A DNA stretch of 64,000 nt, from the IMG/VR virus record IMGVR_UViG_3300028800_000074, positions 1-64,000 of that record; one strand, written 5' to 3'. Source of the DNA: a virus. Each line of letters opens with the position of its first letter. Position 1 is the stretch's first letter. Of this stretch, positions 22,542 to 40,575 are shown in pieces. The notes below the pieces were generated by a model. That model was not told the DNA's origin. It did not search any database and saw nothing but the letters and a program-made list of their open reading frames with translations. Position numbers and translations under genes: made by a program.

Positions 22542-25500
22542 ATGGCAGCGCGTAAGCGGCCGACCTCATCCCCCCGGGTGAGGCCCGGCATCCATATCTC
22601 GGCGGCCCTCCAGTCCCGTATCCTGCGGGCCAAGGACGGTCCGAGCTACGACCCGTTCAAGCCCTACGTTCACGATCAGGCGCTGCACCCGCCCGGCGTA
22701 ACGATGGCGATGGACGACGCCTACAACTCCTTCAGCCCGACGGCTGGGTGGTCGGTCCGCAGCCTCGGCAGCGCTATCGCCGAGGGGCAGGTCTTCCTCG
22801 GCTACCCGACCTTGGCCGCGTTGCTTCAACGCGTCGAGTACATGAACGCGGTCATGTCCTACGCCGACGACATGACGCGGAAGTGGATCGAGTTCAAGGC
22901 GAGCGCCGGGACCGACAAGCAAGAGCGCATCGACGCGATTACAGACAAGTGGGACGCGCTTCAGGTGCAGGCGCGGATGAAGGATCATATCGCGCAGGCT
23001 CTCGGCTTCGGACGGGCGCACGTCTATCTCGACACGGGCGACACCGATAATCCGGACGAGCTGAAGAAGGACATTGGCGACGGCGCTCGGTCTGCCGCCA
23101 CGGCGTTCAAACTCCCGGGCAAGAAGGTGCTCGGGCTCAGGACGATTGAGCCGGTCTGGGTCAGCCCGCACGACTACGAGACCTCGAACCCGCTCAAGCC
23201 GAACTGGTACAAGCCCAACGCTTGGCACGTCATGGCGCGCGAGGTTCATGCGAGCCGTCTTCTGACGACCATCCCGTTCCCGGTCTCCGACTTGCTCAAG
23301 CCCGCCTACTCGTTCGGCGGCATCCCGCTCATCCAGATGGGCAAGCCATACGTCGACAACTGGCTGAACGTCAGACAGTCGACGACCGACATCGCCGAGG
23401 CCTACTCGATCTTCGTGCTTGCGACGAAGTTGCAGGACACGATGGCTGGCGGCAACGGAGACCAAGAAGTCCTCAACCGCGTGGCGCTCTTCAATCGATA
23501 CCGCTCTAACAAGGGCACGATGGTCATCGACAAGGAGACCGAGGACTTCAAGAACATCTCGGCCAATGTGTCCGGCATCGAGGCGATCCAAGCCGCGTCG
23601 CAGGAGCATATGAGCGCCGCATGGCGCATCCCGCTGGTCAAGCTCACCGGCATCTCGCCGTCCGGGCTCAATGCATCGAGCGAGGGCGAGATCAGGGTCT
23701 ATTACGACCTGATCCGGAGCATGCAGGAAGGCCTCATCCGCCCCCTGCTCCAGATCGTCCTCGACTTCACGAGCATCGAGCTGTTCGGCGACGTCGATCC
23801 GGATATCACGTTCGACTTCGTCAAGCTCTTCGAGGTCACCGAGGTTGAGGCGGCCCAGATCAGGTCGGCCGATGCGCAGACCGGCACGGCGCTCATCCAG
23901 TCCGGCGTGATCTCGACCGAGGAAGAGCGGGCCCGCGTCTCCAACGACCCGGACAGCCCGTACATCGACCTCAAGGACACGCCGATCCCAGTCATGCCGG
24001 GCCCAGCCCCGGGTGAAGAGGGCTACGTCGGCGATCCGGATAACTGGCAGACCGCCCTCGAAGGGATCAACAAGCTCGGCGGCCTCCTGCCAGCGCCGGA
24101 GCCCGAGCAGCGCGCCTCACCCGGCGCATGGGAAGGGGTGCTCAAGGGCGTTCTCGCCAACGGTGGGCTTGAGAACCCGGACAACGACGGCATCGTGGCC
24201 TCCCCCGAGGCATGGAAGGCCGTGGGGGCGGGTTTGTCCGCTTCCGGGGGTCTCAGCACCCCAGACGGCTCCGAGGCCGTCCAGCAGCCTCTTGAGCCCG
24301 CCATAAGGCAGGTGTTCGGCAAGGACGCGCTCGAAGACGAGCCGCGCAAGGGTGCCGGGCAGGCTGGCGGTGGCGAATGGACGGCTCAGAGCGGCGGCGG
24401 CGCTCAGAAGTCCGCGCCCGGGAAAAATGGCATTATTGCCGGTAATAATCCGGCCAAGCGTCCCCACGTCGCGCACTATGATCCGAAGGCGACGCAGGTC
24501 GACGCACAGGGCGTGGTTCACACCACGTCGGTCGTCGACGCCGCCCGGGCGCTCTATGACGGCAAGAAGGTCGACCTCAATCAGCCGAGAGAGGTCGCAA
24601 CACTCGTCGACCATCTGGGCCAAGTCGCGAAGCATATGATCGCGATGGGCGATGCTGCGCCGAACTTCAACCTGTGCAACGTCAGCGTCGACAACACGAA
24701 CATCTTCTGTGCGGTGAGCGAGGGCATCCCTCGCATCGACATGCCGCAGCTCCCGCCGAACCTGCACCCGTTCTTGTCGTTCCTCGGCGAGAAGGGTCTC
24801 GGCTTCCAGCCCGCGATGGAAAAGGCTGGCTACCTCAGGGCGACGCAGAACGAGCTGATCGGCGCTAAGGTCGCGGCTATCGCCAAGGCGTTGCAGAACA
24901 TCGATCCGCGCAAGCTCGACCCGCTCGTGGTCAGCAAGGACAACTATATCGTCGACGGTCACCATCGCTGGTCGGCGGAAGTGGCGATCTCGGCTGAGCA
25001 AGGCAACTTCGACCGGCCGCTCGAAATCTATCGCGTCAACAGCGACATCTTGCCGCTGCTCAAGCTCGCCAACGACTTCACGGGCGGCAAGGGACATGTC
25101 GCCGGATCGCTCAAGCCGGGCGAGGCTGCGCTGAACCTGAAGACCGAGAACCATTTCCTTGATGGGGAGACCCACGCGCACGACGGCCGCCCTTTTGGCC
25201 TTGACGAGGCTCGACCGAATCAGGCCATGGATGACTTCAGCCCGTCAGAACCGCGCAAGGGCGTGGGACAGGCTGGTGCAGGGGAGTGGACGGCGGAGGG
25301 TGGGGCTGCGGCTCCTTTTGGCAAAGGCAAGCAATCCGAGCCTTCCGCCGCTTCTCTAAGCGACAAGATCGTCTCAACCCGGAACGTGACAGCCAAGTCC
25401 ACCAAGGGCGAGGCCGAGGGCAAGTACCTCCGCATCGACACCGATGCGATGAAGGCTGACCCTGAGCTGTTCAAGCACAACGTCGGCCTCTTCAAGCGCG

Positions 25501-26627
25501 GCGACCTCTACCCCGGTATGAAGCCCGACGAACTGAAGGGCTCCGAGCAAGAGGTCGCCAAGGCCGTCATCGAGCGCATGCGCGACAACCTCGACTTCCT
25601 CGTCGGGATGGTGCCGAAGGACAAGATCAAGGCGTGGGCGCACTGGTATGAGGGGGCGCACAAATTCGCAGAGGACTTCGGCAAGAAGTATGGCGTCGAC
25701 ACGGCGAGCGCGGCAGGCGTGATCGCGGCCCTCTCGCCGCAGAGGCCGTGGGACGAGAACGTCTACTTCGCGGATCGCGTGATGGACATCATGAAGAACC
25801 ATCCCCACGACAAGTGGGACGACGCGATGAAGTCGACCGGCGAGAGGATTTGGACGAGCGCCAAGAACGCGCCGATCCTGAAGGCCATCGAAGGCAAGCG
25901 CCTCGACGAACTTGACGACCCAGTCGCTCAGGCGGCGTGGATCAGGACGTGGAACGAGGCGCACGAAGACCGCAAGTTCGAGATCGCGAAGCCGGACGGC
26001 ACGTTCGGCGGCAAGATGAAGACGGCGGCCGGAGGCTATGACACCGCGTCATGGGGATCGCTTGCGCAGACCGTGAACGCGATCCACGCTTTCCAGAGCG
26101 GCGGCGACCCGAAGAAGCTCTCCGCAATCTTGGGTGAGAGACACAAGGTTCGCAGCTTCTACAACAACATCATCGCCCCTGATGATCCTAACGGCGACGT
26201 GACGGTCGATACGCATGCTGTTGGAGCGGCGTGGTTGCAGCCGACCTCGGGGACTTCCGCTTCGGTCTGGCACAACCTAGCTAACAATCCGGGCGCAGAG
26301 GGCAAGGACCCGTTCCGGCCGAAGAACTGGGTAGCAGCCAAGGGCTCGGCGAAGCTCGGCGTGAGAGGCACGTATCCGCTCTATGCCGACGCCTATCGAG
26401 AGGCGGCGAAGGATTTGGGGCTCAAGCCCCGCGAGGTTCAGTCGGTCGCGTGGGAGATGAAGCAGCGCCTGTTCAGCGACAAGCTGACCGGCGAGAGGGT
26501 TCAGAAGGCCGTCAACGAGGTCTGGGAAGACTACCGTGACGGCAAGCTCTCGCTGAAGGATGCGCGAGAGAAGGTAGTCTCGGTCGCGACGGCTATGCGC
26601 CCCGACCACAAGATCGACTTCAACTGA
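22542..26627 (+). CDS. DUF1073 portal protein fused to long cargo extension (ParB-like and DUF7178-like domains)
   Basis: FLGYPTLAAL, VHASRLL, IPLVKLTGISPSGLNASSEGEIRVYYD portal motifs in the first ~480 aa; later LRATQ..IVDGHHRW and WY..IAALSPQ..KVRSFYNNI..VTVDTHA..EVQSVAW. Confidence 0.9.
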   Translation: MAARKRPTSSPRVRPGIHISAALQSRILRAKDGPSYDPFKPYVHDQALHPPGVTMAMDDAYNSFSPTAGWSVRSLGSAIAEGQVFLGYPTLAALLQRVEYMNAVMSYADDMTRKWIEFKASAGTDKQERIDAITDKWDALQVQARMKDHIAQALGFGRAHVYLDTGDTDNPDELKKDIGDGARSAATAFKLPGKKVLGLRTIEPVWVSPHDYETSNPLKPNWYKPNAWHVMAREVHASRLLTTIPFPVSDLLKPAYSFGGIPLIQMGKPYVDNWLNVRQSTTDIAEAYSIFVLATKLQDTMAGGNGDQEVLNRVALFNRYRSNKGTMVIDKETEDFKNISANVSGIEAIQAASQEHMSAAWRIPLVKLTGISPSGLNASSEGEIRVYYDLIRSMQEGLIRPLLQIVLDFTSIELFGDVDPDITFDFVKLFEVTEVEAAQIRSADAQTGTALIQSGVISTEEERARVSNDPDSPYIDLKDTPIPVMPGPAPGEEGYVGDPDNWQTALEGINKLGGLLPAPEPEQRASPGAWEGVLKGVLANGGLENPDNDGIVASPEAWKAVGAGLSASGGLSTPDGSEAVQQPLEPAIRQVFGKDALEDEPRKGAGQAGGGEWTAQSGGGAQKSAPGKNGIIAGNNPAKRPHVAHYDPKATQVDAQGVVHTTSVVDAARALYDGKKVDLNQPREVATLVDHLGQVAKHMIAMGDAAPNFNLCNVSVDNTNIFCAVSEGIPRIDMPQLPPNLHPFLSFLGEKGLGFQPAMEKAGYLRATQNELIGAKVAAIAKALQNIDPRKLDPLVVSKDNYIVDGHHRWSAEVAISAEQGNFDRPLEIYRVNSDILPLLKLANDFTGGKGHVAGSLKPGEAALNLKTENHFLDGETHAHDGRPFGLDEARPNQAMDDFSPSEPRKGVGQAGAGEWTAEGGAAAPFGKGKQSEPSAASLSDKIVSTRNVTAKSTKGEAEGKYLRIDTDAMKADPELFKHNVGLFKRGDLYPGMKPDELKGSEQEVAKAVIERMRDNLDFLVGMVPKDKIKAWAHWYEGAHKFAEDFGKKYGVDTASAAGVIAALSPQRPWDENVYFADRVMDIMKNHPHDKWDDAMKSTGERIWTSAKNAPILKAIEGKRLDELDDPVAQAAWIRTWNEAHEDRKFEIAKPDGTFGGKMKTAAGGYDTASWGSLAQTVNAIHAFQSGGDPKKLSAILGERHKVRSFYNNIIAPDDPNGDVTVDTHAVGAAWLQPTSGTSASVWHNLANNPGAEGKDPFRPKNWVAAKGSAKLGVRGTYPLYADAYREAAKDLGLKPREVQSVAWEMKQRLFSDKLTGERVQKAVNEVWEDYRDGKLSLKDAREKVVSVATAMRPDHKIDFN

Positions 26628-26649
26628 ACCTCGGGAGTTTTCGTGCGAC

Positions 26650-27096
26650 ATGACCACAGAGGATGCGAAGGCGGGTCTTAATCTGGTGATGGCCTACGCC
26701 GGTAGGTGGGCGCTGGGCGTCATTGCCTCGGCGCTTGTCTCAATAGGGCTTTACGCCGTCCACCAGAACAACGACATCACGGGCCTCCTGTCGTCGCACA
26801 CGCAAAACTTCGTGAGCATGCAGCGCGAGATCGACGAGATTAAGGGCGACATCGCCAACCACAACAAGCAGATCGACGATACGCAGAGGCAGATCAAGTC
26901 GGACCTGAGCGAGGCGCAGAAAGAGTCGCAGACGCAACTGGAGCGTCGGCAGGACGAGATCATGAGCGCGGTGCATGACGTAACGCGCGCCGTAATCGCC
27001 GCGCACTCCGACCTGATGTCTCTTCGGGCTGGTCTTTTGAACGCGAAGCCGGGTATTGTCATCCCGTTCGAAGATTCGAGCCGGGCCGAGAAATGA
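26650..27096 (+). CDS. single-TM coiled-coil protein
   Basis: WALGVIASALVSIGLYAV TM segment then heptad-rich region; possible lysis accessory. Confidence 0.65.
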   Translation: MTTEDAKAGLNLVMAYAGRWALGVIASALVSIGLYAVHQNNDITGLLSSHTQNFVSMQREIDEIKGDIANHNKQIDDTQRQIKSDLSEAQKESQTQLERRQDEIMSAVHDVTRAVIAAHSDLMSLRAGLLNAKPGIVIPFEDSSRAEK

Positions 27097-27440
27097 GATC
27101 GCAACTGATCATCGTGTTCACGGTCGCCTCTCTGGGCCAATCGGCCTCAGCGCACGCTGGCGACTGGACCGCGCAGGTCGTCGAGCGAACGCAAGGCGGG
27201 CCAGCGGCGGTCTGTAACGGTGAGCAGAGGATCGTCGTCACGAAGAAGCGTGACGGCACCTTCGTCATCGACGGGCCGACCTGCCTTGTTCCAAGAGCGC
27301 CTGCAAATAGCTGGGCTCCTCCGCCTCCGAGGCCGCCGAGCAAGACGGTCCCTCGAAGGGTCTACCACGAGCGCTATGAGCGGCCTCACCACAAGGGTCG
27401 CGCAGGGCTGTTCGACTTCCTGTTCGGTAAGCACCAATGA
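27093..27440 (+). CDS. secreted Pro-rich hypothetical protein
   Basis: Signal peptide ending ASAHA; Cys pair. Confidence 0.6.
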   Translation: MRSQLIIVFTVASLGQSASAHAGDWTAQVVERTQGGPAAVCNGEQRIVVTKKRDGTFVIDGPTCLVPRAPANSWAPPPPRPPSKTVPRRVYHERYERPHHKGRAGLFDFLFGKHQ

Positions 27441-29107
27441 ACACGCCCGGCTCCATCGCCGTCCTCAAGTTCATGACGGAGAACGACATCCCGCTCACCC
27501 GGGAGAACTTCGTCAACACGAACTGGGGCGGCAACCCGCCTCGCCCGTGGGACGCCGAGGCCGAAGAAGAGATACCACTGGAGCTGGCCGAGTTCGGCGA
27601 GCCGGAAGAGAACCGCGAGCTTCTGGAAGACCGTGGCGACCTCGCTGGCGACGACTGGGCCGTGATGGCATCCGGCAAGATCGTCGAAGTCCCCGCTGGC
27701 ACCAAGGCTGGCGACACAGCCCCGGACATCTGGGCCAAGGACGCCTTCGACCCGCAGGAGCCGCGCAAGGACGACGGCGAGTGGACGTCGGGAGGCGGGG
27801 GCGGCGGAGCGAAGGCTGAGAAGGAGCCGGTCGTCGACGTGCCCGCATATGAGTGGGCGAAGCGTCAGATCGACAAGCACACGAAGAACAGCAAGCTGCG
27901 CGCCAAGCAGCACGAGTGGATGGCGCGGCACAAGCAGAACGTCGACGCCTTCTTCAAGAAGAGCGACATCAAGGTCGCGCTCGACAAGGTCGCCAAGGAT
28001 GCGACATCGACCACGTCGTTCACCGTCGGCGCGGCGCTCAATAAGGGCGCGGACGTCGTCTCTGATGCGCTTCAGGACGCCTTGATCGCGGTGGCGGTCG
28101 GAGCTGGCGTCGCAGCCTTCGGCGTCGGAGGTTGGCAGGTCGCAGGATCGGCGGCGCTCGCTTACGCGGTCGAAGAGCTTGGCGACTGGCTCGGGCTCAC
28201 GCCGGAGAACGCGGTCAAGCTCATCAAGGCCGGAGTGCAGGAGATCGGGAAGGCGCTGAAGAAGCGCCCCCAGAAGGACGAGAACGACGACGGGATGTTC
28301 AGCCTTCTGTCGGCTCTCCCGTGGGATCACCCGGTCGACCCGAAGACGAACCCGTTCATCGAAGGCGAAGAGTTCGTGTCTCCGAACGTCAAGACTGGTC
28401 TCGATCTTCAGGACGCGATCAAGGAGACGACGTCGCCGCGCCACAAGACGATGATCAAGGCGGCGCGCGACATCAACAAGCTCATCGGCTTCGAGAGCGA
28501 AGAACACTCAGCGATTGGCGCTTGGCTCGACGGCGCAGAGAACAGCGTGATGTCTGTCACGCACGGCGCGACCATGGCTCAGCTCAGGACGGCGGCGGCG
28601 ATGGAGGGGGCGCTTGCAAACCAGCGCTCGGTGATGATCGTCAACGAGAACGTCGGCGGCAAGGGGCTGCTCTATCACTTCGACGTCAAGGGCGACGTTC
28701 AGTCGATCCACGACGGCTTGCTGGCGAGCGGCGTCGAGTTCCACACCATCGTTCCTTCCGCCGACGGCAAGTTCACGGTATATGTCGCCTCGGCTGATTC
28801 GTCACAACGAGAGTTCAAGGCGGTTCAGAAGGCGGCGGAGCGCTTCAATGCCAAAGTCGAGTACCACAGGGTCGACGCCGAACTCGTCGGATCGGACAAA
28901 GAAGACGGCACCGACGCCGAGCAGCGAGAAGACGCCCAGTCCCGTTACGGATCAATCATTGAAGGCGGCGGGGTTCAAGGAGCCAAAGCCATCTGGGGCC
29001 GGGTTTATTCTCGGTACAAGGCCGCCTTCGAAGACAGAGCCGTAAAGAAGCCTCGTGAAGAGAGGCCGCCGTGGCGGACGCAACAGGCTGAGGGGGCGAG
29101 AGCGTGA
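27437..29107 (+). CDS. multidomain head-associated (putative cargo) protein
   Basis: 556-aa ORF with AKDAFDPQEPRKDDGEWT tag, a hydrophobic central segment and a GAW..GAENS...NQRSV domain. Confidence 0.75.
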   Translation: MNTPGSIAVLKFMTENDIPLTRENFVNTNWGGNPPRPWDAEAEEEIPLELAEFGEPEENRELLEDRGDLAGDDWAVMASGKIVEVPAGTKAGDTAPDIWAKDAFDPQEPRKDDGEWTSGGGGGGAKAEKEPVVDVPAYEWAKRQIDKHTKNSKLRAKQHEWMARHKQNVDAFFKKSDIKVALDKVAKDATSTTSFTVGAALNKGADVVSDALQDALIAVAVGAGVAAFGVGGWQVAGSAALAYAVEELGDWLGLTPENAVKLIKAGVQEIGKALKKRPQKDENDDGMFSLLSALPWDHPVDPKTNPFIEGEEFVSPNVKTGLDLQDAIKETTSPRHKTMIKAARDINKLIGFESEEHSAIGAWLDGAENSVMSVTHGATMAQLRTAAAMEGALANQRSVMIVNENVGGKGLLYHFDVKGDVQSIHDGLLASGVEFHTIVPSADGKFTVYVASADSSQREFKAVQKAAERFNAKVEYHRVDAELVGSDKEDGTDAEQREDAQSRYGSIIEGGGVQGAKAIWGRVYSRYKAAFEDRAVKKPREERPPWRTQQAEGARA

Positions 29108-29313
29108 CGCTCGAAGAAGAGCTTTTCAAAAGAGCGCAGCTTGAGGCTGAGGCGGATCGCATCCTCAGCATCGGCATCGCGCATAATCGAAAGGTGCAGC
29201 GAAACGCCAAGCGCCTTAAGCACTGGACTGGGGGCCGCCTCACCACGGCCGAGATCAATCAGATGACGGCTGAGATGAGGGCGAGGGCTGGTGACGGCAA
29301 GGTTCTCGGGTAA
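29104..29313 (+). CDS. hypothetical protein
   Basis: GTGA-coupled 69-aa ORF. Confidence 0.55.
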   Translation: MTLEEELFKRAQLEAEADRILSIGIAHNRKVQRNAKRLKHWTGGRLTTAEINQMTAEMRARAGDGKVLG

Positions 29314-30214
29314 GTGGTGCGGGCAGCCTTACGGCAAGCCCAGCGTGCTGCTCACCCTTCCAAACCTCATGGGTCTCGACGCCAAGGCGTCAGGGAAGCC
29401 CGCTGGCGGCCGTCGGCCGTCCGTCGCGGTAGGCAGGCCCCTGCATCCGAACCTCGGTCTGGCGGCCTCCTATGGGGCGCGGCTGACCTCTCTGATCGAC
29501 GAGATGCACCGGAGCGTTATCTATTGGCTCAAGGCCGAGTATCGAGCTAACCCACCAGCGACCATGGCGTTCGACGATCTCGCATCGAAGACACTGGCCG
29601 AGACGATGAAGGGTTTGGCGAAGCGGTGGCTAGGACGCTTCGATGAAATGGCGGAGAGGCTGGCCCGTTATTTCGCCCAGTCCGTATCCAAGCGGACCGA
29701 CGACGCGCTCAGGAAGATTTTGAGCGACGGCGGCATGGCGCTCAGGGACTGGAAGACGACCGCCGCCCAGAAGGATGCGCTCGCGGCCATCGTCCACGAG
29801 AACGTGTCGCTGATCAAATCGATCCCGCGCGAGTATCTCGGCAAGGTCGAGCGCGACGTGATGCGGTCGGTCGCGGCCGGTCGAGACCTGAAGCAGCTCG
29901 AAGACGATCTTCAGGCACACTTCGGGGTGACCCGAGACAGGGCTAGGCTGATCGCGGTCGACCAGAACAACAAGGCGACGGCGATGCTGCGCCGCGTCCG
30001 CGCCGTCGAGGCGGGCACGTTCACATGGGAGTGGATGCACTCCAGCGCAGGCAAGACGCCGCGCCCGACGCATCTCGCGGCCGGACGTCGTGGCCAGCGG
30101 TTCGACATCCGAGAGGGATGGTTCGATCCGCATGAGGGCCGCAAGGTTCAGCCGGGCGAATTGATCCGGTGCCGATGTACTTGCCGACCGGTTTTCCCCG
30201 GCCTACCGTCCTGA
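29291..30214 (+). CDS. MuF / SPP1 gp7-like head morphogenesis protein
   Basis: ENVSLIKSIP, RARLIAVDQNNKA, WMHS...PRPTH, PGELIRCRC; true start may be downstream. Confidence 0.92.
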   Translation: MTARFSGKWCGQPYGKPSVLLTLPNLMGLDAKASGKPAGGRRPSVAVGRPLHPNLGLAASYGARLTSLIDEMHRSVIYWLKAEYRANPPATMAFDDLASKTLAETMKGLAKRWLGRFDEMAERLARYFAQSVSKRTDDALRKILSDGGMALRDWKTTAAQKDALAAIVHENVSLIKSIPREYLGKVERDVMRSVAAGRDLKQLEDDLQAHFGVTRDRARLIAVDQNNKATAMLRRVRAVEAGTFTWEWMHSSAGKTPRPTHLAAGRRGQRFDIREGWFDPHEGRKVQPGELIRCRCTCRPVFPGLPS

Positions 30215-30646: not shown

Positions 30647-30657
30647 AGGGTTTCGAC

Positions 30658-32899: not shown

Positions 32900-32937
32900 G
32901 ACCTTCTGAAGGAGAGAGCAGAAGTGGACACACGACA

Positions 32938-33882: not shown

Positions 33883-34100
33883 TGGCTGACCCCGTGGTGA
33901 CCCTCGTGCAGGGCGACAAGGTCTCCGACAAAGAGCGCGCCGAGTGGCACAAGCAGAACATCGCCAAGGCGGCAGAGACGCTCTTCGCCGCCATGGACCT
34001 CGCGGTCAGCGAGGACTTCGTCATCAACTTCCAGCCCACCATAAACATAGCGATCAAAAAGCACATGATCGCGGTGCTGGGCGTCGGGAGGATGTGGTGA
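33879..34100 (+). CDS. hypothetical protein
   Basis: 73-aa coupled ORF. Confidence 0.6.
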   Translation: MMADPVVTLVQGDKVSDKERAEWHKQNIAKAAETLFAAMDLAVSEDFVINFQPTINIAIKKHMIAVLGVGRMW

Positions 34101-34396
34101 CGGCGATTGGCGGATGGGACATCGTCCACGAGTGCGATGACGGCTATCACGTCGTCTGGCTCCTGAGCAACGACAAGGGCGAAGAGCTGGCGCACGCCGA
34201 GGGCTTCCGGCGCGGGGAGAACGGCGGGTACGTCTGGTACCCCTACGCGATGGACCCGAGCGACCCCGAGCATCTGATCCGTCTCGGTCCGTCGGCGCAC
34301 AGCGACATCGAACTCGTGAAGAAACAGTGCGAGGCAGTCATCGAGGGGTCCAAGAGCCCTTACGCGGACAGCGTCGCCTACGTGATCGGAGGTTGA
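34097..34396 (+). CDS. hypothetical protein
   Basis: GGAGG RBS, GTGA coupling; VTAIGGWDIVHECDDG. Confidence 0.55.
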   Translation: MTAIGGWDIVHECDDGYHVVWLLSNDKGEELAHAEGFRRGENGGYVWYPYAMDPSDPEHLIRLGPSAHSDIELVKKQCEAVIEGSKSPYADSVAYVIGG

Positions 34397-34399
34397 GGC

Positions 34400-35107
34400 G
34401 TGGGCAGCAACGGCAAACTCGGCATGGACGCTTGGAAGAAGGCGTTCGCGAAGGACTGCTGGATGAAGGGCGCGAAGGACGACAACGAGTCCATGGCGGC
34501 CGAGCAGGACGACAGCGGCGGCATGACCGGCGACGTCCCCGGCTTCGAGACCTCGCATGTGCCAACCTTCAGCCCCGAGGACTTCGAGCGCTTGGGCGCA
34601 CGGAAGGCCAAGGGCAACGACGACGCCTATCGCGGATGGACGCCCGGTGGCGGTGCGCCACAGCCGATCACGACCAGATCAACTCCGGCAGCGCCTAAGC
34701 GCCCGGAGTACCGTGGGTGGACCCCGGGTGGTGGCGCACCGATGTCGAAGGACGGCATCGTGAGCGGCATCAAGAGCGCGGCGAAGTCGGCGTTCGCGGC
34801 AGCGAGGAAGCCTTACCCGTCGTCAACTCCGGGCGACCCGTTTCACCTTCCGAGCGCGACGCCGAAGAACGGCTTCTCGATGCGGAACGGTCGCGGCGCT
34901 CATGACTCGCCGACCGACAAGACGCCCGATCAACCGTCCGGCTTCGACAAGGGCGGCATGGTGCGCGGCATGGATTACCTGAAGAAGGGCCAGAGGCGTC
35001 TCGGCAAGGCTGGCGCGATGGACGTCATCCTGAAGACGAAGCGCCCCAGTAGTGGCGTCAGCACTTCGCTCCGGCACGAAGTAGAGGACTTGCAGGACTC
35101 GGTGTGA
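34400..35107 (+). CDS. low-complexity protein with many x-x-D motifs (putative internal head polyprotein)
   Basis: GMD, AKD (x2), SKD, AHD, GMD, AMD motifs; YRGWTPGGGAP twice. Confidence 0.7.
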   Translation: MGSNGKLGMDAWKKAFAKDCWMKGAKDDNESMAAEQDDSGGMTGDVPGFETSHVPTFSPEDFERLGARKAKGNDDAYRGWTPGGGAPQPITTRSTPAAPKRPEYRGWTPGGGAPMSKDGIVSGIKSAAKSAFAAARKPYPSSTPGDPFHLPSATPKNGFSMRNGRGAHDSPTDKTPDQPSGFDKGGMVRGMDYLKKGQRRLGKAGAMDVILKTKRPSSGVSTSLRHEVEDLQDSV

Positions 35108-35129
35108 GTCCTGAAGCGAGGAGAGAGAG

Positions 35130-35369
35130 ATGCTGAATCACATCGAAGTCAACGACCGCCTTACCCGCCTTGAGCGCTTCGTCGCCGAGATCGGCTCGCA
35201 CATCTCGTCGGACAGTATTTCGCCAGAGCTGGAGCAGTTCGTCGCGGCCGATCAGGCGAGGATCGACAAGGAGCGTGAAGAGCAGTCGGCGAATGAGCCC
35301 GGCGAGGCCCACGACGGCGGCCCGATGCCGCCCGAGGGCGACGGCACCGACCCTGACGCGCCTCGTTGA
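35130..35369 (+). CDS. hypothetical acidic protein
   Basis: GAGGAGAGAG RBS; 79 aa. Confidence 0.65.
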   Translation: MLNHIEVNDRLTRLERFVAEIGSHISSDSISPELEQFVAADQARIDKEREEQSANEPGEAHDGGPMPPEGDGTDPDAPR

Positions 35370-35460
35370 CGATCAGGCACGTCTGCGCCTTCTGTTCGAC
35401 GAATAACGCGATGCAGATGGGCTCGACCGCGACCAAGAACGGGCGGACCGGCGTCGTGAA

Positions 35461-35682
35461 GTGGTGGAACTTGCTCCACTGCATCAAGTGCCGCCGCTCG
35501 TATCGGATCGGTCGAACATGAACTGGGCGCTCGCTCACTTGCGCCATAAGATGCGCGTCAAGGGCTATGGCCTCGTTCGAGACCGGCGCAGATGGCGGAA
35601 CGAGCGCAATCACTGGCGCGTGCGGCGACAGATGATGTCGCTCTTCGAGGCGGCGGGATTTTTCGAGGCCGAGAGCCAATGA
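35461..35682 (+). CDS. hypothetical basic protein
   Basis: 73-aa ORF coupled to the next gene. Confidence 0.45.
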   Translation: MVELAPLHQVPPLVSDRSNMNWALAHLRHKMRVKGYGLVRDRRRWRNERNHWRVRRQMMSLFEAAGFFEAESQ

Positions 35683-35921
35683 GCTTCAATGTTCAAGGAT
35701 GGTCGAAGTGCTTCTCGCATGATTGCTGGAAGCCGAAGACTGCCGCGAAGGACGATTGGGGCGACTATCATCGGGTCGGTGGGATGAACTTCCCGACCGC
35801 GAAGACGGCCGAGCGCATCGATCACGCTGGTCTCAATAAGGAGACGCGCACTCCCGGGAACATGCGCGAAGACGAAGGTCTCGGCCAGTCCATCAGGGAC
35901 GACCGGGACATGAGCTGGTAA
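35679..35921 (+). CDS. small protein sharing its N-terminal motif with the 34400 ORF
   Basis: WSKCFSHDCWKPKTAAKDD versus WKKAFAKDCWMKGAKDD. Confidence 0.65.
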   Translation: MSFNVQGWSKCFSHDCWKPKTAAKDDWGDYHRVGGMNFPTAKTAERIDHAGLNKETRTPGNMREDEGLGQSIRDDRDMSW

Positions 35922-35940
35922 CCGCAGCTCTCCCTTTCAG

Positions 35941-38397
35941 ATGCGTCGACCTGTCGGGTTCGCCCGAGCGCTTGCGCTCGACGACTTCAATGCGGCTGAG
36001 CCTCGCGCCAACAATGGCCAGTGGGCAGCGGCTCCGGGCGGGGGCTTCACGCTCAGGCCAGACGCGGCCAGTGCCGCTACCCGTTACAGAAGGGCAACGG
36101 AGCGAGCGCAGTCTGCTCTGCCTGACGACGACGAATATCAGCGTCTTCTGGAGCAGGGGCGGAAGCTCGAAGGCCTGAAGGCCGCCGTCCGCGATCCCCT
36201 GACCGGGAAGATCATGACCGGGCGTGATCACAACGCGGCGTTCTACTCGCACGATAAGGATGCGCAGGCGCGCATCAAGGCGACACTGACGCCCGGACGA
36301 GACCCGGTGACGAACGTCGCGACCAATAGGTGGAACTACGAAGGGCCAAACGTCGGCTTTACTCGTGGTGGATCATTTTTCTCGCGTCAGCAGGTCGAGG
36401 ACATGCTTAAGGCGCGCGATGATCAGGATTTATCCGAAGCGCTTCACGGTGCCTCCTACGAGGATGTGCGCTCGAAGCGCAGTTCAATCGCCAGCACCAT
36501 CGCCCGCTTCCATAATCGTGAGGGCGGAGAACCCATGTTCGGTGGAGATCGAAGGAAAGTGTTCGCGCACGACGCAATCGATGCAGAGATGGCGTTCGAT
36601 GAAGCCCAGACCACGCGATCTTATGATCCGTTCGGTCGGCTCAACCTCGACCTGACGCCGATCTCGAAGGCGACCGTCAATCCATATCAGGGGAAGGAAA
36701 TCCCCGACTGGCAGAAGCTCAAGCTTGACCCCGAAAAGGTCTACATGCTGCTTCGCCATCCCGACGAACTGAAGCGCGCAGCCGCGAGCTTCAACAATGT
36801 GCCGCTGCTCTATCGTCACAAGCCGACGAGCGCCGAGAACCATCCACGCGATCTCGTTGTGGGGACGACCGGCGAGCGCGCAGTTTATCAGCACCCCTAC
36901 CTCTACAACTCGATGTCCGTCTGGGACGACAACGACGGCATCGAGGGCATCGAGAACAACAAGGCTCGCGCTCTCTCGTGTGGCTACGCCTATGACCCGG
37001 ACATGAGGCCGGGCGTCTACGAGGGGCAGCGTTACGACGGCGTGATGCGCAACATCAGGGGCAATCACGTCATCCTCACAAAGGAAGGCCGCGCCGGGCC
37101 GGACATCATCGTTGGCGACTCAATGGAGAACCTCAACATGGCAACTGCACCGAAGCTTTCTCCGGTGGCATTGGTCGCTCGAAGGGCGGTCAGGCAGCAC
37201 CTTACGCCGCTCATGGCGGCCGACGCGGCGATTGACATCACGCCCGCCTTCGTCGGCCTCAAGCAGCTCGACGAGCGATCCCAGCAGATCGTTCACGCGC
37301 GGGTCGGCCAGCTCGTGCGCGGCAAGCTCAACGCGGCGCTGGCGATGGACGATGTGAGCGCCGGGCTCCGTGCGCTGCTCGAAGCGCTTGGCGGAGGCGG
37401 CGAGCCCGACATGGGCGGCGGCGTCGACGACGTCTCCCCTCCCGGGACCGAGGCCGAGGGCATGCCCGAGACCGACCTCGCGACCGGCGCAGAGCCGGAC
37501 ACGATGCAGCTCGAAACCGACGCCGCTCCCCCGGAGGATACCTCTGGCGGCAACGACCCGCCTCCGATGCAGGGCGCTGGCGGCGATCCGGCTGCGATGG
37601 AGCAGGCGGGTCCGGCACCGCAGGGCGGCGAAGGCGCGGCAGGACCGATTGAGAAGGTCCGCAGCTACCTCATGACCGTCCTGAACCCCGCCGAGATGCA
37701 GCATCTCGAACTCCTCATCTCCGAAGTCGACAGCGGCGACGGAGGGGAGCCGGACCCGACCATGCAGGCGGGAGGCTCAGAGAAGCCCGGTGGCGGCCAT
37801 CCGCCGATGGCCGGTGCTGGTGGACCTCCCGGCCCCGACAAGGGCGCTGGCGGGCCTCCTATGGCCGCTGGCGGCCCTCCCAAGCCTCCCGGCGCTGGCG
37901 GACCTCCGCCGAAGCCCGGCGCGGGTGGGCCTCCCGATCCCAAGAAGCAAACCGGGGATAACCCCCCTCGAACCGCAGGAACGCCGCAGGTCGGCGGAAA
38001 GGACAGAAACATGGCAGGTGATCAGGCCTTCGTCAGCCGGGCCGACCTTCAGGCTGCGCTCGCGGCGAACGACAAGCTCCATCGTGAGCGTGCGGAAGCC
38101 CGGGCTTTCATCCGACCGTTTGTCGGGGAACTCACCGGGCTCGCGATGGACGCGGCTCCGAACGACGTCATCAAGGCCGCGCTCAAGATCAAGGGCATGT
38201 CCGACGCCGACCTGAAGCCAATTCAGGACACGGCCGCGCTCAAGCTCCTGCTCGGCGCTCAGTCGAAGGCCGAAGCGTCGCGTGAGAGAGCGCCCCGCAT
38301 GGCGCTCGATTCGAAGGCGACGTCGAAGGACGAGCCCTTCAGCATCGAGGCCGTCACCGGTCTCAAGAACTTCGGAAGGATCGGACGCGCGGCCTAA
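35941..38397 (+). CDS. DUF2213 prohead protease-scaffold fusion with N-terminal extension
   Basis: ISKATVNPYQGKEIP, LSCGY.Y, GNHVILTKEGRAG; Pro/Gly-rich scaffold region; about 216 extra N-terminal residues. Confidence 0.9.
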   Translation: MRRPVGFARALALDDFNAAEPRANNGQWAAAPGGGFTLRPDAASAATRYRRATERAQSALPDDDEYQRLLEQGRKLEGLKAAVRDPLTGKIMTGRDHNAAFYSHDKDAQARIKATLTPGRDPVTNVATNRWNYEGPNVGFTRGGSFFSRQQVEDMLKARDDQDLSEALHGASYEDVRSKRSSIASTIARFHNREGGEPMFGGDRRKVFAHDAIDAEMAFDEAQTTRSYDPFGRLNLDLTPISKATVNPYQGKEIPDWQKLKLDPEKVYMLLRHPDELKRAAASFNNVPLLYRHKPTSAENHPRDLVVGTTGERAVYQHPYLYNSMSVWDDNDGIEGIENNKARALSCGYAYDPDMRPGVYEGQRYDGVMRNIRGNHVILTKEGRAGPDIIVGDSMENLNMATAPKLSPVALVARRAVRQHLTPLMAADAAIDITPAFVGLKQLDERSQQIVHARVGQLVRGKLNAALAMDDVSAGLRALLEALGGGGEPDMGGGVDDVSPPGTEAEGMPETDLATGAEPDTMQLETDAAPPEDTSGGNDPPPMQGAGGDPAAMEQAGPAPQGGEGAAGPIEKVRSYLMTVLNPAEMQHLELLISEVDSGDGGEPDPTMQAGGSEKPGGGHPPMAGAGGPPGPDKGAGGPPMAAGGPPKPPGAGGPPPKPGAGGPPDPKKQTGDNPPRTAGTPQVGGKDRNMAGDQAFVSRADLQAALAANDKLHRERAEARAFIRPFVGELTGLAMDAAPNDVIKAALKIKGMSDADLKPIQDTAALKLLLGAQSKAEASRERAPRMALDSKATSKDEPFSIEAVTGLKNFGRIGRAA

Positions 38398-38446
38398 GCG
38401 CGTCCATTTCGTCCGCCCCTCAAACTCAGCATAGAGGAGAGACCCG

Positions 38447-39415
38447 ATGTCGGGCTTCCAGACCCAAGTCAATATCCAGCCCGCACTGGGTGTCGCGGGC
38501 GACTTTTGCAGCGCCAACACCCACAACACCTTCCAGTCCGGCGCAGGCGGCCTCGTCGCGGGCCCGGCTGGCGTGACCGTCGCCGCGTTCGCGTGGGTGA
38601 CCTATCAGACGACGGATGACGCCTACGCTCCGGGCACGGTCAACAGCTTCGGCTTTGGACCACCGAGCGGCTTCATCCATCGCGAGATGCAGTCGCTGAA
38701 CACCGTCTATCCGCCTTACGTCACCCCGGCTGGCGACAACACGATCCCGTCTGGCTTCCAGATCGGCTCGCTGTTCCGCTCCGGCGACTTCTTCATGACG
38801 AACAACGGGACCACGCAGGCGCAGCCGGGCCAGACGGCCTATGCGTTCCTCGCGACCGGCCTCGTCCGCTTCGGCTCGGCGAACACCACGACGTCGTCGA
38901 CGACCTCGACCGTCTCGGCGCAGACCTTCAGCGTCACCGCGACGCTGAACAACAACATCATGACCGTCTCGAACGTCAGCTCGGGCTCGATCTACGCGGG
39001 CGCGACCATCTCGGGTTCGGGCGTGATCGGGTGCCAGATCGTCGGTCAGGTGACCCCGCTACTCGCGGGCGAGACCCTCGCTGGCGTCGGCCGCTACTAC
39101 GTCAGCGCGGCCGAGCAGAACGTCGCCGTCGGCGTCACCGTCTCGGGCACCTACGGGTTGCTCACGCTCGGCGGCGCTCCAGCCACGCCGATCCCGATTG
39201 GCGCGTTCGTGAGCGGCGGCACCGTCGGCAACCCCTGCTATGTCCGGCAGCTCATCTCGGGCACGGGCGGCGCGGGCTCGACCTACTCGGTCGACAACAA
39301 CACCGTCTCTTCGTCGGCCACGCTCACCTTCACGCTCGACGTGGCGACGAGCTGGGTTGCGGACTCGGCGGGAGCGCCCGGCGAAGTCGTCAAGACCCGC
39401 TGCCTGATCCCGTAA
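38447..39415 (+). CDS. head cement/decoration protein
   Basis: MSGFQTQVN.QPA.GVAGDF.S.N, GFIHRE.Q, GDFF; lies between protease and capsid genes. Confidence 0.85.
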   Translation: MSGFQTQVNIQPALGVAGDFCSANTHNTFQSGAGGLVAGPAGVTVAAFAWVTYQTTDDAYAPGTVNSFGFGPPSGFIHREMQSLNTVYPPYVTPAGDNTIPSGFQIGSLFRSGDFFMTNNGTTQAQPGQTAYAFLATGLVRFGSANTTTSSTTSTVSAQTFSVTATLNNNIMTVSNVSSGSIYAGATISGSGVIGCQIVGQVTPLLAGETLAGVGRYYVSAAEQNVAVGVTVSGTYGLLTLGGAPATPIPIGAFVSGGTVGNPCYVRQLISGTGGAGSTYSVDNNTVSSSATLTFTLDVATSWVADSAGAPGEVVKTRCLIP

Positions 39416-39471
39416 GGCGGCTGACACAACCATAAAGCCCAAGCGGCTAACCTCTGTAGGAGAACCCTCAC

Positions 39472-40575
39472 ATGACCGTTCACATGAACCCGCAAGAGGC
39501 ACGCGCCGCTTGGGCTCTGCATGCGCCCGAGTTCGCTCGCCTCGGTTTTATCGCGCCGGAAATCCAGTCCTACTACCCCTCTGGGATGAAGGAAGACTGG
39601 ACGCTGGCGTTCGACGCGCAGCCTTCGCTCCAGTCCGACCCGAACTCGGCGCTGCCGGTGATGCTCACGACGATGATCGACCCAGAAGTCGTTCGCTTCG
39701 TCTTCGCGCCGACCGAGTTCGCCGACATCTGCGGCGAAGTCCGGAAGGGTACGTGGCTCGACGAGACGATCCTCTTCCCGGTCGTTGAACACACCGGCGA
39801 GGTCGCGCCCTACGGCGACGACTTCAACAGCGGCGCGTCCGGGGTCAACATGAACTGGCCCCCGAGGCAGAGCTACCTGTTCCAGATCATCAAGCAGTAC
39901 GGACAGCGTGCGCTTGAGCGGGCGGGGCTCGGCAAGATCGACTACGTGAGCGAGATCGACAAGGCTGCGGCCGACGTCGTGAACCGCTTCCACAACCTCG
40001 CCTACGCGTTCGGCATCCTAGGCCTCATCAACTACGGCATGTTGAACGACCCGGCGCTCCCGGCGTCGCTCACCCCGGGCGTCAAGGCGAACGGAAACGG
40101 CAACGTCTGGATTTTCAACAATCTGCCGAACGCCAGCGCCAACGAGGTCTACAACGACATCCTCGCCCTCTACCAGTCGCTCATCTCGCGCACCTACGGC
40201 CTCGTCAACAAGAAGTCGAAGCTGACGCTCGTGATGTCGCCGGGTTCCGAGATGGCGATGGACTTCGCCAACGGCTTCAACGTCCACACGAGCGACATCC
40301 TCGCGAAGGCGTTCCCGAACCTCACGATCAAGACCGCGCCGCAGTACGGCGTGCTCTCTGCGGCCAACCCGCAGGGGATCACCGGGGGCAACTTCGTGCA
40401 GCTCTTCGCCGAGGAGTTCGAGGGGACCAAGACCGTGATGGCCGCCTTCAACGAGAAGCAGCGCGCCTTCCCCATCATCAAGGAGATGTCGTCCTTCAAG
40501 CAGAAGGTCGCCTCCGGCGTGTGGGGCACCGTGATCCGACGGCCGCTCGCCGTCGCATCCATGATCGGGGTGTAA
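39472..40575 (+). CDS. major capsid protein (DUF2184)
   Basis: LAFDAQP.L, TTMIDP, GEVAPYGD, RQSYLFQ, YGMLNDP, GTVIRRPLAVASMIGV. Confidence 0.95.
   Translation: MTVHMNPQEARAAWALHAPEFARLGFIAPEIQSYYPSGMKEDWTLAFDAQPSLQSDPNSALPVMLTTMIDPEVVRFVFAPTEFADICGEVRKGTWLDETILFPVVEHTGEVAPYGDDFNSGASGVNMNWPPRQSYLFQIIKQYGQRALERAGLGKIDYVSEIDKAAADVVNRFHNLAYAFGILGLINYGMLNDPALPASLTPGVKANGNGNVWIFNNLPNASANEVYNDILALYQSLISRTYGLVNKKSKLTLVMSPGSEMAMDFANGFNVHTSDILAKAFPNLTIKTAPQYGVLSAANPQGITGGNFVQLFAEEFEGTKTVMAAFNEKQRAFPIIKEMSSFKQKVASGVWGTVIRRPLAVASMIGV

What the first reader, a model, noticed from the sequence alone, without database searches (positions are those of the whole stretch)
22542..39625. Putative capsid-cargo system: an x-x-D cleavage motif plus an EPR..G.W tag shared by portal, protease and stand-alone ORFs
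Seen: four copies of a tag in three genes: GKDALEDEPRKGAGQAGGGEWT (~24318-24383) and AMDDFSPSEPRKGVGQAGAGEWT (~25224-25292) in the portal, AKDAFDPQEPRKDDGEWT (~27734-27787) in the 556-aa ORF, and ALDDFNAAEPRANNGQW (~35974-36024) at the start of the protease gene. Each tag directly follows an [A/G]-x-D triplet and opens a new, unrelated domain. The same triplet occurs at domain borders across the head module: portal N-terminus (AKD, AMDD), MuF (GLD, AFDD), both ends of the protease domain (AHD, AFD; VGD), scaffold (AAD, AMD, AGD, AMD, ALD) and capsid protein (LAFDAQP). Known: prohead proteases cut short recurrent motifs, and T4 loads internal proteins through a short capsid-targeting peptide. 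Inference: DUF2213 cuts at x-x-D, releasing tagged domains inside the head for co-ejection with DNA. That would be a modular effector-delivery code built into essential morphogenesis genes.
Basis: partly seen in the sequence, partly recalled or inferred. Interest (0 to 1): 0.92.

Follow-up and report, generated by a model that had tools for sequence, protein, structure and literature searches.

The report
Tagged, protease-cut enzyme cargo in phage head
This uncultured 79-kb phage strings extra enzyme domains onto its portal and head-protease genes, and each domain starts with the same short peptide placed just after a likely cut site for the phage's own head protease. The peptide recurs in many unrelated phages and appears undescribed, so it may mark proteins that are packed into the head and injected with the DNA.

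Summary
The four tags are real, in frame and at the stated coordinates. They are the only such matches in six frames of the 79-kb genome. A profile built only from tags of other genomes ranks three of them as its top three hits.

The tag ([FWY]-x3-4-[EQH]-P-R-loop-G-x-[WF], then a Gly-rich linker) is widespread. It sits before unrelated cargo domains (ParB-like, HhH-glycosylase-like DUF7178, zeta-toxin kinase, HNH; NUDIX and ADP-ribosyltransferase occur in the same proteins). It occurs behind three portal families and ahead of MuF and two protease families. AlphaFold2 models it as a free, disordered peptide.

The loose [AG]-x-D triplet is not enriched (71 observed, 63 expected). A narrower A-[MLF]-D-[DAS] motif is enriched about 10-fold in capsid proteins and 5-fold in protease-scaffolds. 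It is near-invariant at the N-termini of the capsid protein, portal and protease. It also coincides with the first residue seen in the phage E217 capsid structure.

In DUF2213 phages, 24 of 25 tags have Asp just upstream, against 5 of 17 in other head types.

Cleavage, packaging and the tag's function remain inferred. This is a new variant of known polyvalent or internal head proteins. This scan found the same kind of tag before on other DNA (e1-6049379).

The parts
22542..26627 (+). Portal polyprotein (1361 aa, 148 kDa): N-peptide, portal core, tagged ParB-like module, tagged DUF7178 module
   Evidence: Open frame. PF06381 covers residues 90-447 at E 7e-73, and DUF7178 is C-terminal. Related portals with tagged C-terminal extensions occur in 7 loci and in P0106.
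22707..22715 (+). Predicted protease site A56-M57-D58 at the portal N-terminus (TMAMD|DAY)
   Evidence: An A-x-D triplet sits at this place in most of 34 related portals. 21 fit the strict A-[MLFIV]-D-[DAS] form and 9 more a looser small-x-D form. LBL3/E217 has SVAMD|SAY and BcepNY3 has NALD|AAP.
24318..24383 (+). Junction 1: GKD site plus tag 1 (ALEDEPRKGAGQAGGGEWT)
   Evidence: This is the weakest match to the tag profile.
24399..25211 (+). Cargo 1: ParB/Srx-like module (DGHHR motif)
   Evidence: Homologous modules occur in P0010, P0025 and P0036, each next to tags. The nearest ESM Atlas cluster is viral, with ParBc_2 in 57% of members, score 0.91. There is no Pfam hit.
25224..25292 (+). Junction 2: AMD site plus tag 2 (DFSPSEPRKGVGQAGAGEWT)
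   Evidence: AlphaFold2 gives pLDDT of about 30 here, so it is modelled as a free peptide.
25356..26624 (+). Cargo 2: DUF7178 domain with an HhH-GPD glycosylase-like fold
   Evidence: PF23802. 3222 representative homologues of 436-4452 aa. AlphaFold2 mean pLDDT 85.8. The top 22 VIA matches are all HhH-GPD enzymes, Z 8.8 to 4.0.
27437..29107 (+). Stand-alone tagged protein (556 aa): roughly 100-aa leader, AKD site, tag 3, Gly/Ala-rich segment, C-domain
   Evidence: The C-domain (28304-29104) recurs in 23 of 151 DUF7178 proteins. Its model is a double ferredoxin-like fold, with phage SAM lyases among the tied best matches.
27734..27787 (+). Junction 3: AKD site plus tag 3 (AFDPQEPRKDDGEWT)
   Evidence: Best match to the tag profile built from other genomes, E 8e-8.
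29291..30214 (+). MuF-like head morphogenesis protein; candidate site TMAFD|D at 29567-29575
   Evidence: PF04233 and phrog_324. Motif enrichment in related MuF proteins is weak: 10 observed against 4.9 expected.
35941..38397 (+). Protease-scaffold polyprotein (818 aa): ALD site, tag 4, unknown N-domain, DUF2213 protease, Pro/Gly-rich scaffold
   Evidence: DUF2213 covers residues 226-394 at E 4.7e-42. It is syntenic with the annotated BcepNY3 prohead protease and nested scaffold. Six related loci carry tagged cargo N-terminal to DUF2213.
35974..36024 (+). Junction 4: ALD site plus tag 4 (DFNAAEPRANNGQW)
   Evidence: E 6e-5.
36565..36600 (+). Site cluster AHD/AID/AFD at the N-terminal edge of the protease domain
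   Evidence: [LI]-A-[FLM]-D immediately precedes the DUF2213 domain in most of the 22 related sequences shown. BcepNY3 starts MPEVCFAFD|K.
37342..38310 (+). Scaffold region with sites ALAMD|D (37342-37350), GLAMD|A (38143-38151) and RMALD|S (38302-38310)
   Evidence: In 68 related protease-scaffold ORFs the motif count is 139 against 28.2 expected, with 110 of them after the protease domain.
38447..39415 (+). Decoration or minor capsid protein (XM1 gp53-like N-domain); no sites
   Evidence: PF23982 and phrog_2122. The motif is not enriched in this family: 3 observed against 6.9 expected.
39472..40575 (+). Major capsid protein (DUF2184 type) with predicted maturation site L-A46-F-D48|A49-Q-P at 39607-39615
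   Evidence: phrog_264. Among 120 homologues, A46 is present in 118, D48 in all 120 and A49 in 117. The first modelled residue of E217 gp25 (residue 66, after AMD64-S65) aligns with A49/Q50.

Best explanation
The window is the head module of a complete, uncultured 79-kb myophage, probably of an alphaproteobacterium. Two essential head genes (the DUF1073-type portal and the DUF2213 protease-scaffold) and one stand-alone gene carry extra 'cargo' domains, in the manner of phage polyvalent proteins.

Each cargo module is built the same way. A small-x-Asp site comes first. A 16-25-residue acidic/aromatic peptide follows ([FWYL]-x3-4-[EQH]-P-R-loop-G-x-[WF]). A Gly-rich flexible linker comes next, and then the folded domain.

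Inferred mechanism, in steps:
1. The carriers bring the modules into the procapsid. The portal would supply 12 copies, and the protease-scaffold the copies of the inner core.
2. The DUF2213 serine protease cuts after Asp in A/G-x-D, best as A-[MLF]-D|[ADS]. The same motif trims the capsid protein, the portal N-terminus, the protease's own N-terminal edge and the scaffold.
3. This frees a 32-kDa ParB-like module, a 51-kDa HhH-glycosylase-like module, the protease N-domain and the body of the 556-aa protein. Each would then begin with the tag.
4. The freed proteins stay in the head and leave with the DNA to act early in the host, as takeover or anti-defence enzymes.

The tag is a free linear motif that marks the mature N-terminus of each cargo. 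Its most likely role is a handling signal for internal proteins, either holding or positioning them in the head or leading them out through the portal and tail channel.

Shown: the motif, its specificity, its distribution, and conservation of the sites. Inferred: cleavage at the junctions, packaging, ejection and the tag's role.
For: Tag is real and specific.

Tag is widespread and lies between domains:
- 88 matches in 52 of 150 DUF7178 proteins, against 7.1 +/- 2.4 in shuffles, with up to 7 per protein.
- Viral contigs selected by the tag alone show it between Portal_Mu and a zeta-toxin domain, between Phage_portal PF04860 and HNH, upstream of MuF, and upstream of Peptidase_S78.
- In 80 loci with a related capsid protein, 25 tags were found. 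Seven (in six portal ORFs) follow the portal core and six precede DUF2213 in the same ORF. Other domains in those proteins include NUDIX, Acb1, ADP-ribosyltransferase and a weak phosphoribosyltransferase match.

Cargo moves between carriers.

The tag is modelled as disordered while its domain folds well (pLDDT about 30 against more than 90).

Cleavage motif:
- A[MLFIV]D[DAS], observed against expected from shuffles: capsid protein 81/8.1, protease-scaffold 139/28.2, portal 25/11.8, decoration protein 3/6.9, other ORFs 91/83.2.
- LAMDAQP is near-invariant in 120 capsid proteins.
- The portal N-terminal A-x-D and the protease-edge LAFD are conserved.
- The same motif sits at the same places in BcepNY3 and in the PB1-like phage LBL3.
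- The E217 capsid model starts at residue 66, right after AMD64-S65, and the authors say residues 1-65 'could be cleaved' (PMC10329688).

Link between site and tag: Asp lies within 4 residues upstream of the tag's aromatic residue in 24 of 25 tags of the DUF2213 group. In tag-selected phages of other or unknown head type (S78 protease, Mu-type and HK97-type portals where identified) it does so in 5 of 17 (Fisher p=6e-6).

The cargo looks like conflict enzymes, as in Iyer et al. 2017 (PMC5512222).
Against: - There is no direct evidence of cleavage, packaging or ejection for this phage or any tagged protein.
- The narrower motif was defined after looking at the window. Its replication is in homologous proteins, so it shows conservation rather than independent recurrence.
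- Tags 1 and 3 follow G-K-D and A-K-D, not the strict A-hydrophobic-D form.
- The E217 N-terminus rests on missing density, not on sequencing. Its portal is modelled only from residue 97, 25 residues beyond its AMD.
- Some relatives fuse cargo to the portal with no tag (BcepNY3 portal-NUDIX). Giant DUF7178 polyvalent proteins and the cultured phage CRP-738 also lack it. The tag is therefore not required for carrying cargo.
- The tag's sequence is conserved across phages whose capsid, portal and protease belong to different families. That is hard to reconcile with a virion-protein partner and leaves its function open.
Confidence: 0.6

Rival explanations
1. The tag is a substrate-docking element on the P' side. 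It is recognised by prohead proteases of the herpesvirus/HK97-like kind (DUF2213, S78) to direct or speed cutting at the junction. It is not a label used after release.
For: The tag always lies just downstream of the presumed cut, followed by a flexible linker. It occurs in genes fused to either protease family.
Against: The best-conserved sites (capsid protein, portal N-terminus, scaffold) have no tag downstream, so the tag is not needed for cutting. Some proteins appear to start with the tag at residues 3-12, with nothing to cut off (P0026, P0028, P0037).
Confidence: 0.2
2. No cleavage occurs at the tags. The extra domains stay tethered to the portal and protease, and the Asp upstream is simply part of the local tag consensus in this phage group.
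For: Cleavage is not shown. Tags 1 and 3 do not fit the strict motif. Portal fusions without any tag or site exist.
Against: The same A-x-D motif marks the capsid protein, portal N-terminus and protease edge, where processing is expected. The upstream Asp tracks the DUF2213 head type and not the tag itself (24/25 against 5/17). A protease carrying a roughly 200-aa N-terminal cargo and a scaffold would normally be trimmed.
Confidence: 0.2
3. The tag acts in the host after injection. It might bind a conserved bacterial factor or protect or refold the incoming N-terminus.
For: The tag sequence is far better conserved than any virion protein across phages with different portal, protease and capsid families. 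That points to a conserved partner outside the virion. The tag is a free linear motif.
Against: No known host-binding motif matches it. There was no hit in PDB sequences and none in Pfam or NCBIfam. This is pure inference.
Confidence: 0.15
4. The tag is a passive seam. It would be a linker remnant that travels with shuffled modules, or marks recombination joints, and has no function of its own.
For: Modules clearly shuffle between carriers and gene orders. Polymorphic toxins use conserved pre-toxin seams (own knowledge).
Against: The peptide is kept among representatives of clusters built at 50% identity while its flanks are unalignable. The four copies in the window differ at synonymous sites and share at most about 12 identical bases, too little for homologous exchange.
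Confidence: 0.1

Closest known systems
Phage-type polyvalent proteins and portal- or MuF-fused effectors (Iyer, Burroughs, Anand, de Souza, Aravind 2017, PMC5512222)
   Same: Several unrelated enzyme domains sit in one polypeptide encoded in a portal-terminase head module. Fusions to portal and MuF are described there, and the proteins are proposed to be packaged and injected. DUF7178 co-occurs with ART-PolyVal, LPD22 and LPD38.
   Different: That paper proposes zincin metallopeptidase domains for self-processing. My term searches of the text (motif, cleav, linker, proteolytic and others) found no mention of a shared junction peptide or a prohead-protease site. Here no metallopeptidase was found. 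The modules are delimited by a small-x-D site plus the tag, and the protease gene itself is a carrier.
T4 internal proteins: capsid-targeting sequence plus gp21 cutting at L/I-x-E
   Same: A short recurrent motif with an acidic P1 residue is cut by the prohead protease. Enzymes are loaded into the head and injected with the DNA. The gp21 motif is cited in 10.64898/2026.03.04.709575; the rest is own knowledge.
   Different: The T4 targeting peptide is N-terminal and is removed by the cut. Here the tag lies downstream of the cut and would stay on the cargo, while entry is supplied by a covalent carrier or a leader. P1 is Asp, not Glu.
Giant phage (phiKZ, SPN3US) head maturation: protease cutting at S/A/G-x-E in many head and ejection proteins (PMC7411985, PMC10052503)
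   Same: The site has a small residue at P3, any residue at P2 and an acidic residue at P1. It is shared by capsid, portal-vertex and ejection proteins, and propeptides are removed. The S/A/G-x-E motif itself is from my own knowledge; I read only these papers' abstracts, which report cleavage by the prohead protease but not the motif.
   Different: The protease family differs (T4 gp21-like rather than DUF2213) and P1 is Glu. No conserved peptide after the cut is reported.
PB1-like (E217/LBL3) and Bcep781-like (BcepNY3) myophage head modules
   Same: The gene order is the same: portal(+fusion), MuF, DUF2213 protease-scaffold, decoration protein, DUF2184 capsid protein. A-M-D sites sit at the same places.
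   Different: These cultured phages lack the tag. BcepNY3 fuses NUDIX to its portal without it.
Pre-toxin seams of polymorphic toxins (VENN of CdiA, PxxxxDPxGL of Rhs) and encapsulin cargo-loading peptides (own knowledge)
   Same: Both are short conserved peptides. The toxin seams delimit swappable modules, and the encapsulin peptides address cargo to an HK97-fold shell.
   Different: The sequences are unrelated. Toxin seams precede only the last domain. Encapsulin peptides are usually C-terminal and bind the shell, and no such binding is shown here.

Membership tests
Phage polyvalent proteins (Iyer et al. 2017) | Two or more unrelated effector-type domains in one polypeptide | tested here: met
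   The portal carries a core, a ParB-like module and DUF7178. The protease ORF carries an extra N-domain.
Phage polyvalent proteins (Iyer et al. 2017) | Encoded in a portal-terminase head module, or fused to portal or MuF | tested here: met
   TerL is 18050-19585, the portal 22542-26627 and MuF 29291-30214.
Phage polyvalent proteins (Iyer et al. 2017) | Shares domains with recognised polyvalent proteins | tested here: met
   DUF7178 occurs with ART-PolyVal, LPD22 and LPD38 in proteins of 4096 and 4452 aa.
DUF2213 prohead protease | Match to PF09979 above the curated cut-off | tested here: met
   144.3 bits against a cut-off of 22, covering residues 226-394.
DUF2213 prohead protease | Position between MuF and capsid genes, with a scaffold part in the same gene | tested here: met
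   Syntenic with the annotated prohead protease and nested scaffold of BcepNY3 and with LBL3.
DUF2213 prohead protease | Catalytic activity, and cutting after Asp | not testable with these tools
   Only comparative site conservation and one cryo-EM N-terminus are available.
T4-type capsid-targeting sequence | N-terminal peptide that is removed by the prohead protease after loading | tested here: not met
   The tag lies downstream of the predicted cut at all four junctions, and in 24 of 25 related tags.
ParB/Srx-like nuclease domain (cargo 1) | Family profile match or fold | tested here: inconclusive
   No Pfam hit at E<=1. The DGHHR motif is visible by eye. The nearest ESM Atlas cluster has ParBc_2 in 57% of members, score 0.91.
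HhH-GPD DNA glycosylase superfamily (cargo 2, DUF7178) | Shared fold | tested here: inconclusive
   The top 22 VIA matches all belong to this superfamily (Z 8.8, rmsd 3.9, 187 aligned, down to Z 4.0). Z is middling for a helical protein, and Foldseek found nothing at E<=0.001.
Phage SAM lyase (C-domain of the 556-aa ORF) | Shared fold | tested here: inconclusive
   6znb gives Z 8.2, rmsd 3.1, 106 of 125 aligned, and 8bb1_E gives Z 7.3. These tie with AcrB porter subdomains (Z 8.8), so the result may reflect only a generic double ferredoxin-like fold.

The most novel reading that the evidence does not exclude
The [FWY]-x3-4-[EQH]-P-R-loop-G-x-[WF] peptide is a general signal of tailed phages that marks proteins carried inside the head and handed to the host with the DNA. 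It would work across portal, protease and capsid families. It could then be used as a sequence handle to list injected effectors in any phage genome, and as a portable tag for loading foreign proteins into capsids.
Probability: 0.3. Interest if true: 0.85.

Novelty: new variant of a known kind. Interest (0 to 1): 0.7.

Why it matters
Phages inject proteins that disarm host defences, but these proteins are hard to recognise from sequence.

A short peptide that precedes cargo domains across many phage lineages would give a simple search key for them. Examples seen here include ADP-ribosyltransferases, NUDIX enzymes, the anti-CBASS enzyme Acb1, zeta-toxin-like kinases and nucleases.

Separately, the A-[MLF]-D cut motif gives the first testable specificity for the widespread DUF2213 head proteases. 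These occur in PB1-like, Bcep781-like and AP22-like phages, some of which are in therapeutic use. The motif predicts the mature ends of their capsid, portal and scaffold proteins.

Tried and rejected
- A word-indexed search with the 4-tag alignment found only P0005. A second search with one tag region of P0047 found 3 proteins. That tool is too insensitive for a 20-residue motif.
- The search for related loci with the whole protease-scaffold found nothing in the viral contigs.
- A PDB sequence search with the tag profile found no match at E<=10.
- Pfam and NCBIfam have no model over the tag.
- Literature: my term searches inside Iyer 2017 and Jamet 2017 turned up no description of the tag. A word search for HPRD returned only noise, and a search on capsid targeting with polyvalent found nothing relevant. 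The Summer et al. 2006 Bcep781 paper, which may hold N-terminal sequences, is not held.
- Complex prediction with the DUF2213 domain and a junction peptide gave no verdict (score 0.02, controls not run). This is not evidence either way.
- No close relative exists in the cultured phage collection by DNA.
- The cultured phage CRP-738 has DUF7178 but no tag, so no ready laboratory model was found.
- The ESM Atlas gave nothing usable for the C-domain of the 556-aa ORF.
- The idea that the tags are recent DNA duplications or recombination seams was rejected on the DNA alignment.

Full report
CONTEXT

The window is the first 64 kb of a single 79,131-bp contig. The contig ends repeat about 130 bases, which indicates a complete, circularly assembled phage genome. 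No cultured phage is close at the DNA level.

Gene content marks a myophage:
- large terminase at 18050-19585
- DUF3383 sheath at 44372-46348
- Baseplate_J at 57590-59131

The head module runs in this order:
- portal, 22542-26627 (PF06381 over residues 90-447)
- two small ORFs
- a 556-aa ORF, 27437-29107
- MuF, 29291-30214
- about 15 small ORFs
- protease-scaffold, 35941-38397 (DUF2213 over residues 226-394)
- an XM1-gp53-like decoration protein, 38447-39415
- the DUF2184/phrog_264 major capsid protein, 39472-40575

Burkholderia phage BcepNY3 and the PB1-like phage LBL3 have the same order. Capsid homologues at 53-83% identity carry names from Phenylobacterium, Xanthobacter and Rhodospirillaceae. 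The host is therefore probably an alphaproteobacterium.

THE TAG IS REAL

All four copies are present in frame as described. The pattern EPR.{1,14}G.W occurs nowhere else in six frames of the genome, apart from one match that runs across stop codons.

A profile built only from 89 tags of other genomes puts tag 3, tag 4 and tag 2 at ranks 1-3 in the six-frame genome (E 8e-8, 6e-5, 4e-3). Tag 1 has Leu in place of the aromatic residue and a long loop, and it scores weakly. The four DNA copies differ at synonymous sites, so the conservation is at the protein level.

THE TAG IS WIDESPREAD AND MODULAR

The portal's last domain (DUF7178) has 3222 representative homologues of 436 to 4452 residues. 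Among the best 150, the tag pattern occurs 88 times in 52 proteins, against 7.1 +/- 2.4 in shuffles. One protein has seven copies.

There are two flavours:
- F-D-P-x-[EQ]-P-R-D-x2-G-[RK]-W-T
- [FW]-x-E-x-x-H-P-R-[DG]-loop-G-x-F

Both are usually followed by Gly-rich sequence.

The window's cargo domains reappear in other orders and behind other carriers:
- The ParB-like module is in P0010, P0025 and P0036.
- The C-domain of the 556-aa ORF is in 23 of 151 proteins.
- P0005 is a DUF2213 protease followed by three tagged modules, among them that C-domain and DUF7178.

Viral contigs selected by the tag alone (pattern for HPRDEHGRW) show it in several settings:
- between a Mu-type portal and a zeta-toxin-like kinase
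- between an HK97-type portal and an HNH nuclease
- upstream of MuF
- upstream of an S78 protease

In 80 viral loci with a related capsid protein, 68 have DUF2213, and 25 tags were found. Seven (in six portal ORFs) follow the portal core and six lie N-terminal to DUF2213 in the same ORF. Other domains in those proteins include NUDIX, Acb1, ADP-ribosyltransferases and a weak phosphoribosyltransferase match.

AlphaFold2 folds DUF7178 with high confidence. It leaves the 55 residues holding the site, the tag and the linker at pLDDT about 30. The tag therefore behaves as a free linear motif and not as part of its domain.

THE CUT SITE

A narrower form, A-[MLFIV]-D-[DA], is enriched in the head module (8 against 1.7) and not elsewhere in the genome (7 against 4.7). 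That definition was made after looking at the data, so I tested it, as A-[MLFIV]-D-[DAS], in relatives.

In the 80 related loci the counts against shuffles were:
- capsid protein: 81 against 8.1
- protease-scaffold: 139 against 28.2
- portal: 25 against 11.8
- MuF: 10 against 4.9
- decoration protein: 3 against 6.9
- all other long ORFs: 91 against 83.2

Conservation at fixed positions:
- In 120 capsid homologues, L-A-[M/L/F]-D-A-Q-P is nearly invariant. D48 is present in all 120, A46 in 118 and A49 in 117.
- An A-x-D triplet, mostly [LM]-A-[MLQ]-D, sits at the same place before the portal core in most of 34 related portals. 21 fit the strict form and 9 more a looser small-x-D form.
- [LI]-A-[FLM]-D sits at the N-terminal edge of the protease domain in most of the 22 related sequences shown.
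- BcepNY3 and LBL3, which are only 23-36% identical in the capsid protein, have A-M-D at the same three places.

In the cryo-EM model of the PB1-like phage E217, the capsid protein is visible from residue 66. The authors say residues 1-65 'could be cleaved' (PMC10329688). In the near-identical LBL3 capsid protein the sequence there is S-A-M-D64-S65-N66. The first modelled residue aligns with A49/Q50 of the window's protein, directly after A-F-D48.

The most economical reading is that DUF2213 proteases cut after Asp, with a small residue at P3 and a preference for Met, Leu or Phe at P2.

THE SITE AND THE TAG ARE SEPARATE ELEMENTS

In the DUF2213 group, 24 of 25 tags have Asp within four residues upstream of the tag's aromatic residue, and 19 have [AGS]-x-D. 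In the tag-selected phages of other or unknown head type, only 5 of 17 do, and the upstream residues are mostly basic or hydrophobic (Fisher p=6e-6). The tag is thus general, while the residues before it follow the head type.

If the window's portal is cut at D58, D595 and D897, it yields four pieces:
- a 6-kDa N-peptide
- a 58-kDa portal
- a 32-kDa ParB-like protein
- a 51-kDa DUF7178 protein

WHAT THE CARGO IS

- DUF7178: the 22 best structural matches all belong to the HhH-GPD glycosylase superfamily (Z 8.8 down to 4.0). Foldseek found nothing clear, so this is suggestive only.
- ParB-like module: supported by its DGHHR motif and by an ESM Atlas neighbour cluster with ParBc_2, but not by Pfam.
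- C-domain of the 556-aa ORF: a double ferredoxin-like fold. Phage SAM lyases are among the tied best matches, which is inconclusive.
- N-domain of the protease gene: unknown.

WHAT THE TAG DOES

This is the weakest step. In this window a carrier or a leader precedes each tag, and the tag stays on the released piece. A T4-style entry peptide therefore fits poorly. The conserved capsid and portal sites have no tag after them, so the tag is not needed for cutting.

I favour a handling signal on the mature N-terminus of internal proteins, for holding them in the head or leading them out. I cannot exclude a protease-docking role or a role in the host. The last of these is suggested by the tag being better conserved than any virion protein. 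A complex prediction of protease with junction peptide gave no verdict and counts for nothing.

NOVELTY

Polyvalent head proteins and portal or MuF fusions are published (PMC5512222). My term searches inside that paper and inside the MuF toxin paper (PMC5576092) found no mention of the tag or of a prohead-protease site. Pfam, NCBIfam and PDB sequences hold nothing for it. My literature access is partial, so 'undescribed' is provisional.

This scan noted the same kind of tag before in another, 110-kb phage (e1-6049379). I did not rely on that note, but my independent data agree with it.

VERDICT

The finding is a new variant of a known kind, with a testable protease motif and a portable search key for phage cargo.

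Noticed in passing
window 20389-22530 (+): A 713-aa ORF with strong coding bias lies between the large terminase (18050-19585) and the portal. It has no Pfam or PHROG match and no tag.
   Followed up: partly
window 34400-35107 (+): A 235-aa ORF just upstream of the protease gene has no family match. It carries three loose small-x-D sites (GMD, AKD, AHD). Other first-stage notes call it a peptide precursor. I did not test this.
   Followed up: no
window 1-130 and genome 79000-79131: The contig ends repeat about 130 bases with one or two mismatches. This indicates a circular or terminally redundant complete genome.
   Followed up: partly
window 38447-39415 (+): The decoration protein is twice the length of XM1 gp53. 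Only residues 4-169 match the family. The C-terminal 150 residues are Gly/Ser/Thr/Val-rich and of unknown nature.
   Followed up: no
window 37100-37125 (+); alignment A5: The sequence V-V-G-D-S at the C-terminal end of the DUF2213 domain is nearly invariant in 23 relatives. It could be a C-terminal self-cleavage site or simply part of the fold.
   Followed up: no
L084:2-4843 (+): A related 1614-aa portal carries Acb1 (anti-CBASS), NUDIX and an ADP-ribosyltransferase behind the portal core. Only one regex-detectable tag is present, after Acb1.
   Followed up: partly
L072:225-3545 (+): A related portal has a weak, sub-threshold Hint-domain match (23.7 bits, cut-off 28.4) at the point where its portal-core match is split, so it may carry an intein. 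A tag follows near its C-terminus.
   Followed up: no
window 28020-28220 (+), residues about 195-260 of the 556-aa ORF: A hydrophobic Gly/Ala/Val-rich stretch lies between tag 3 and the C-domain. It might be membrane-active or a second linker.
   Followed up: no
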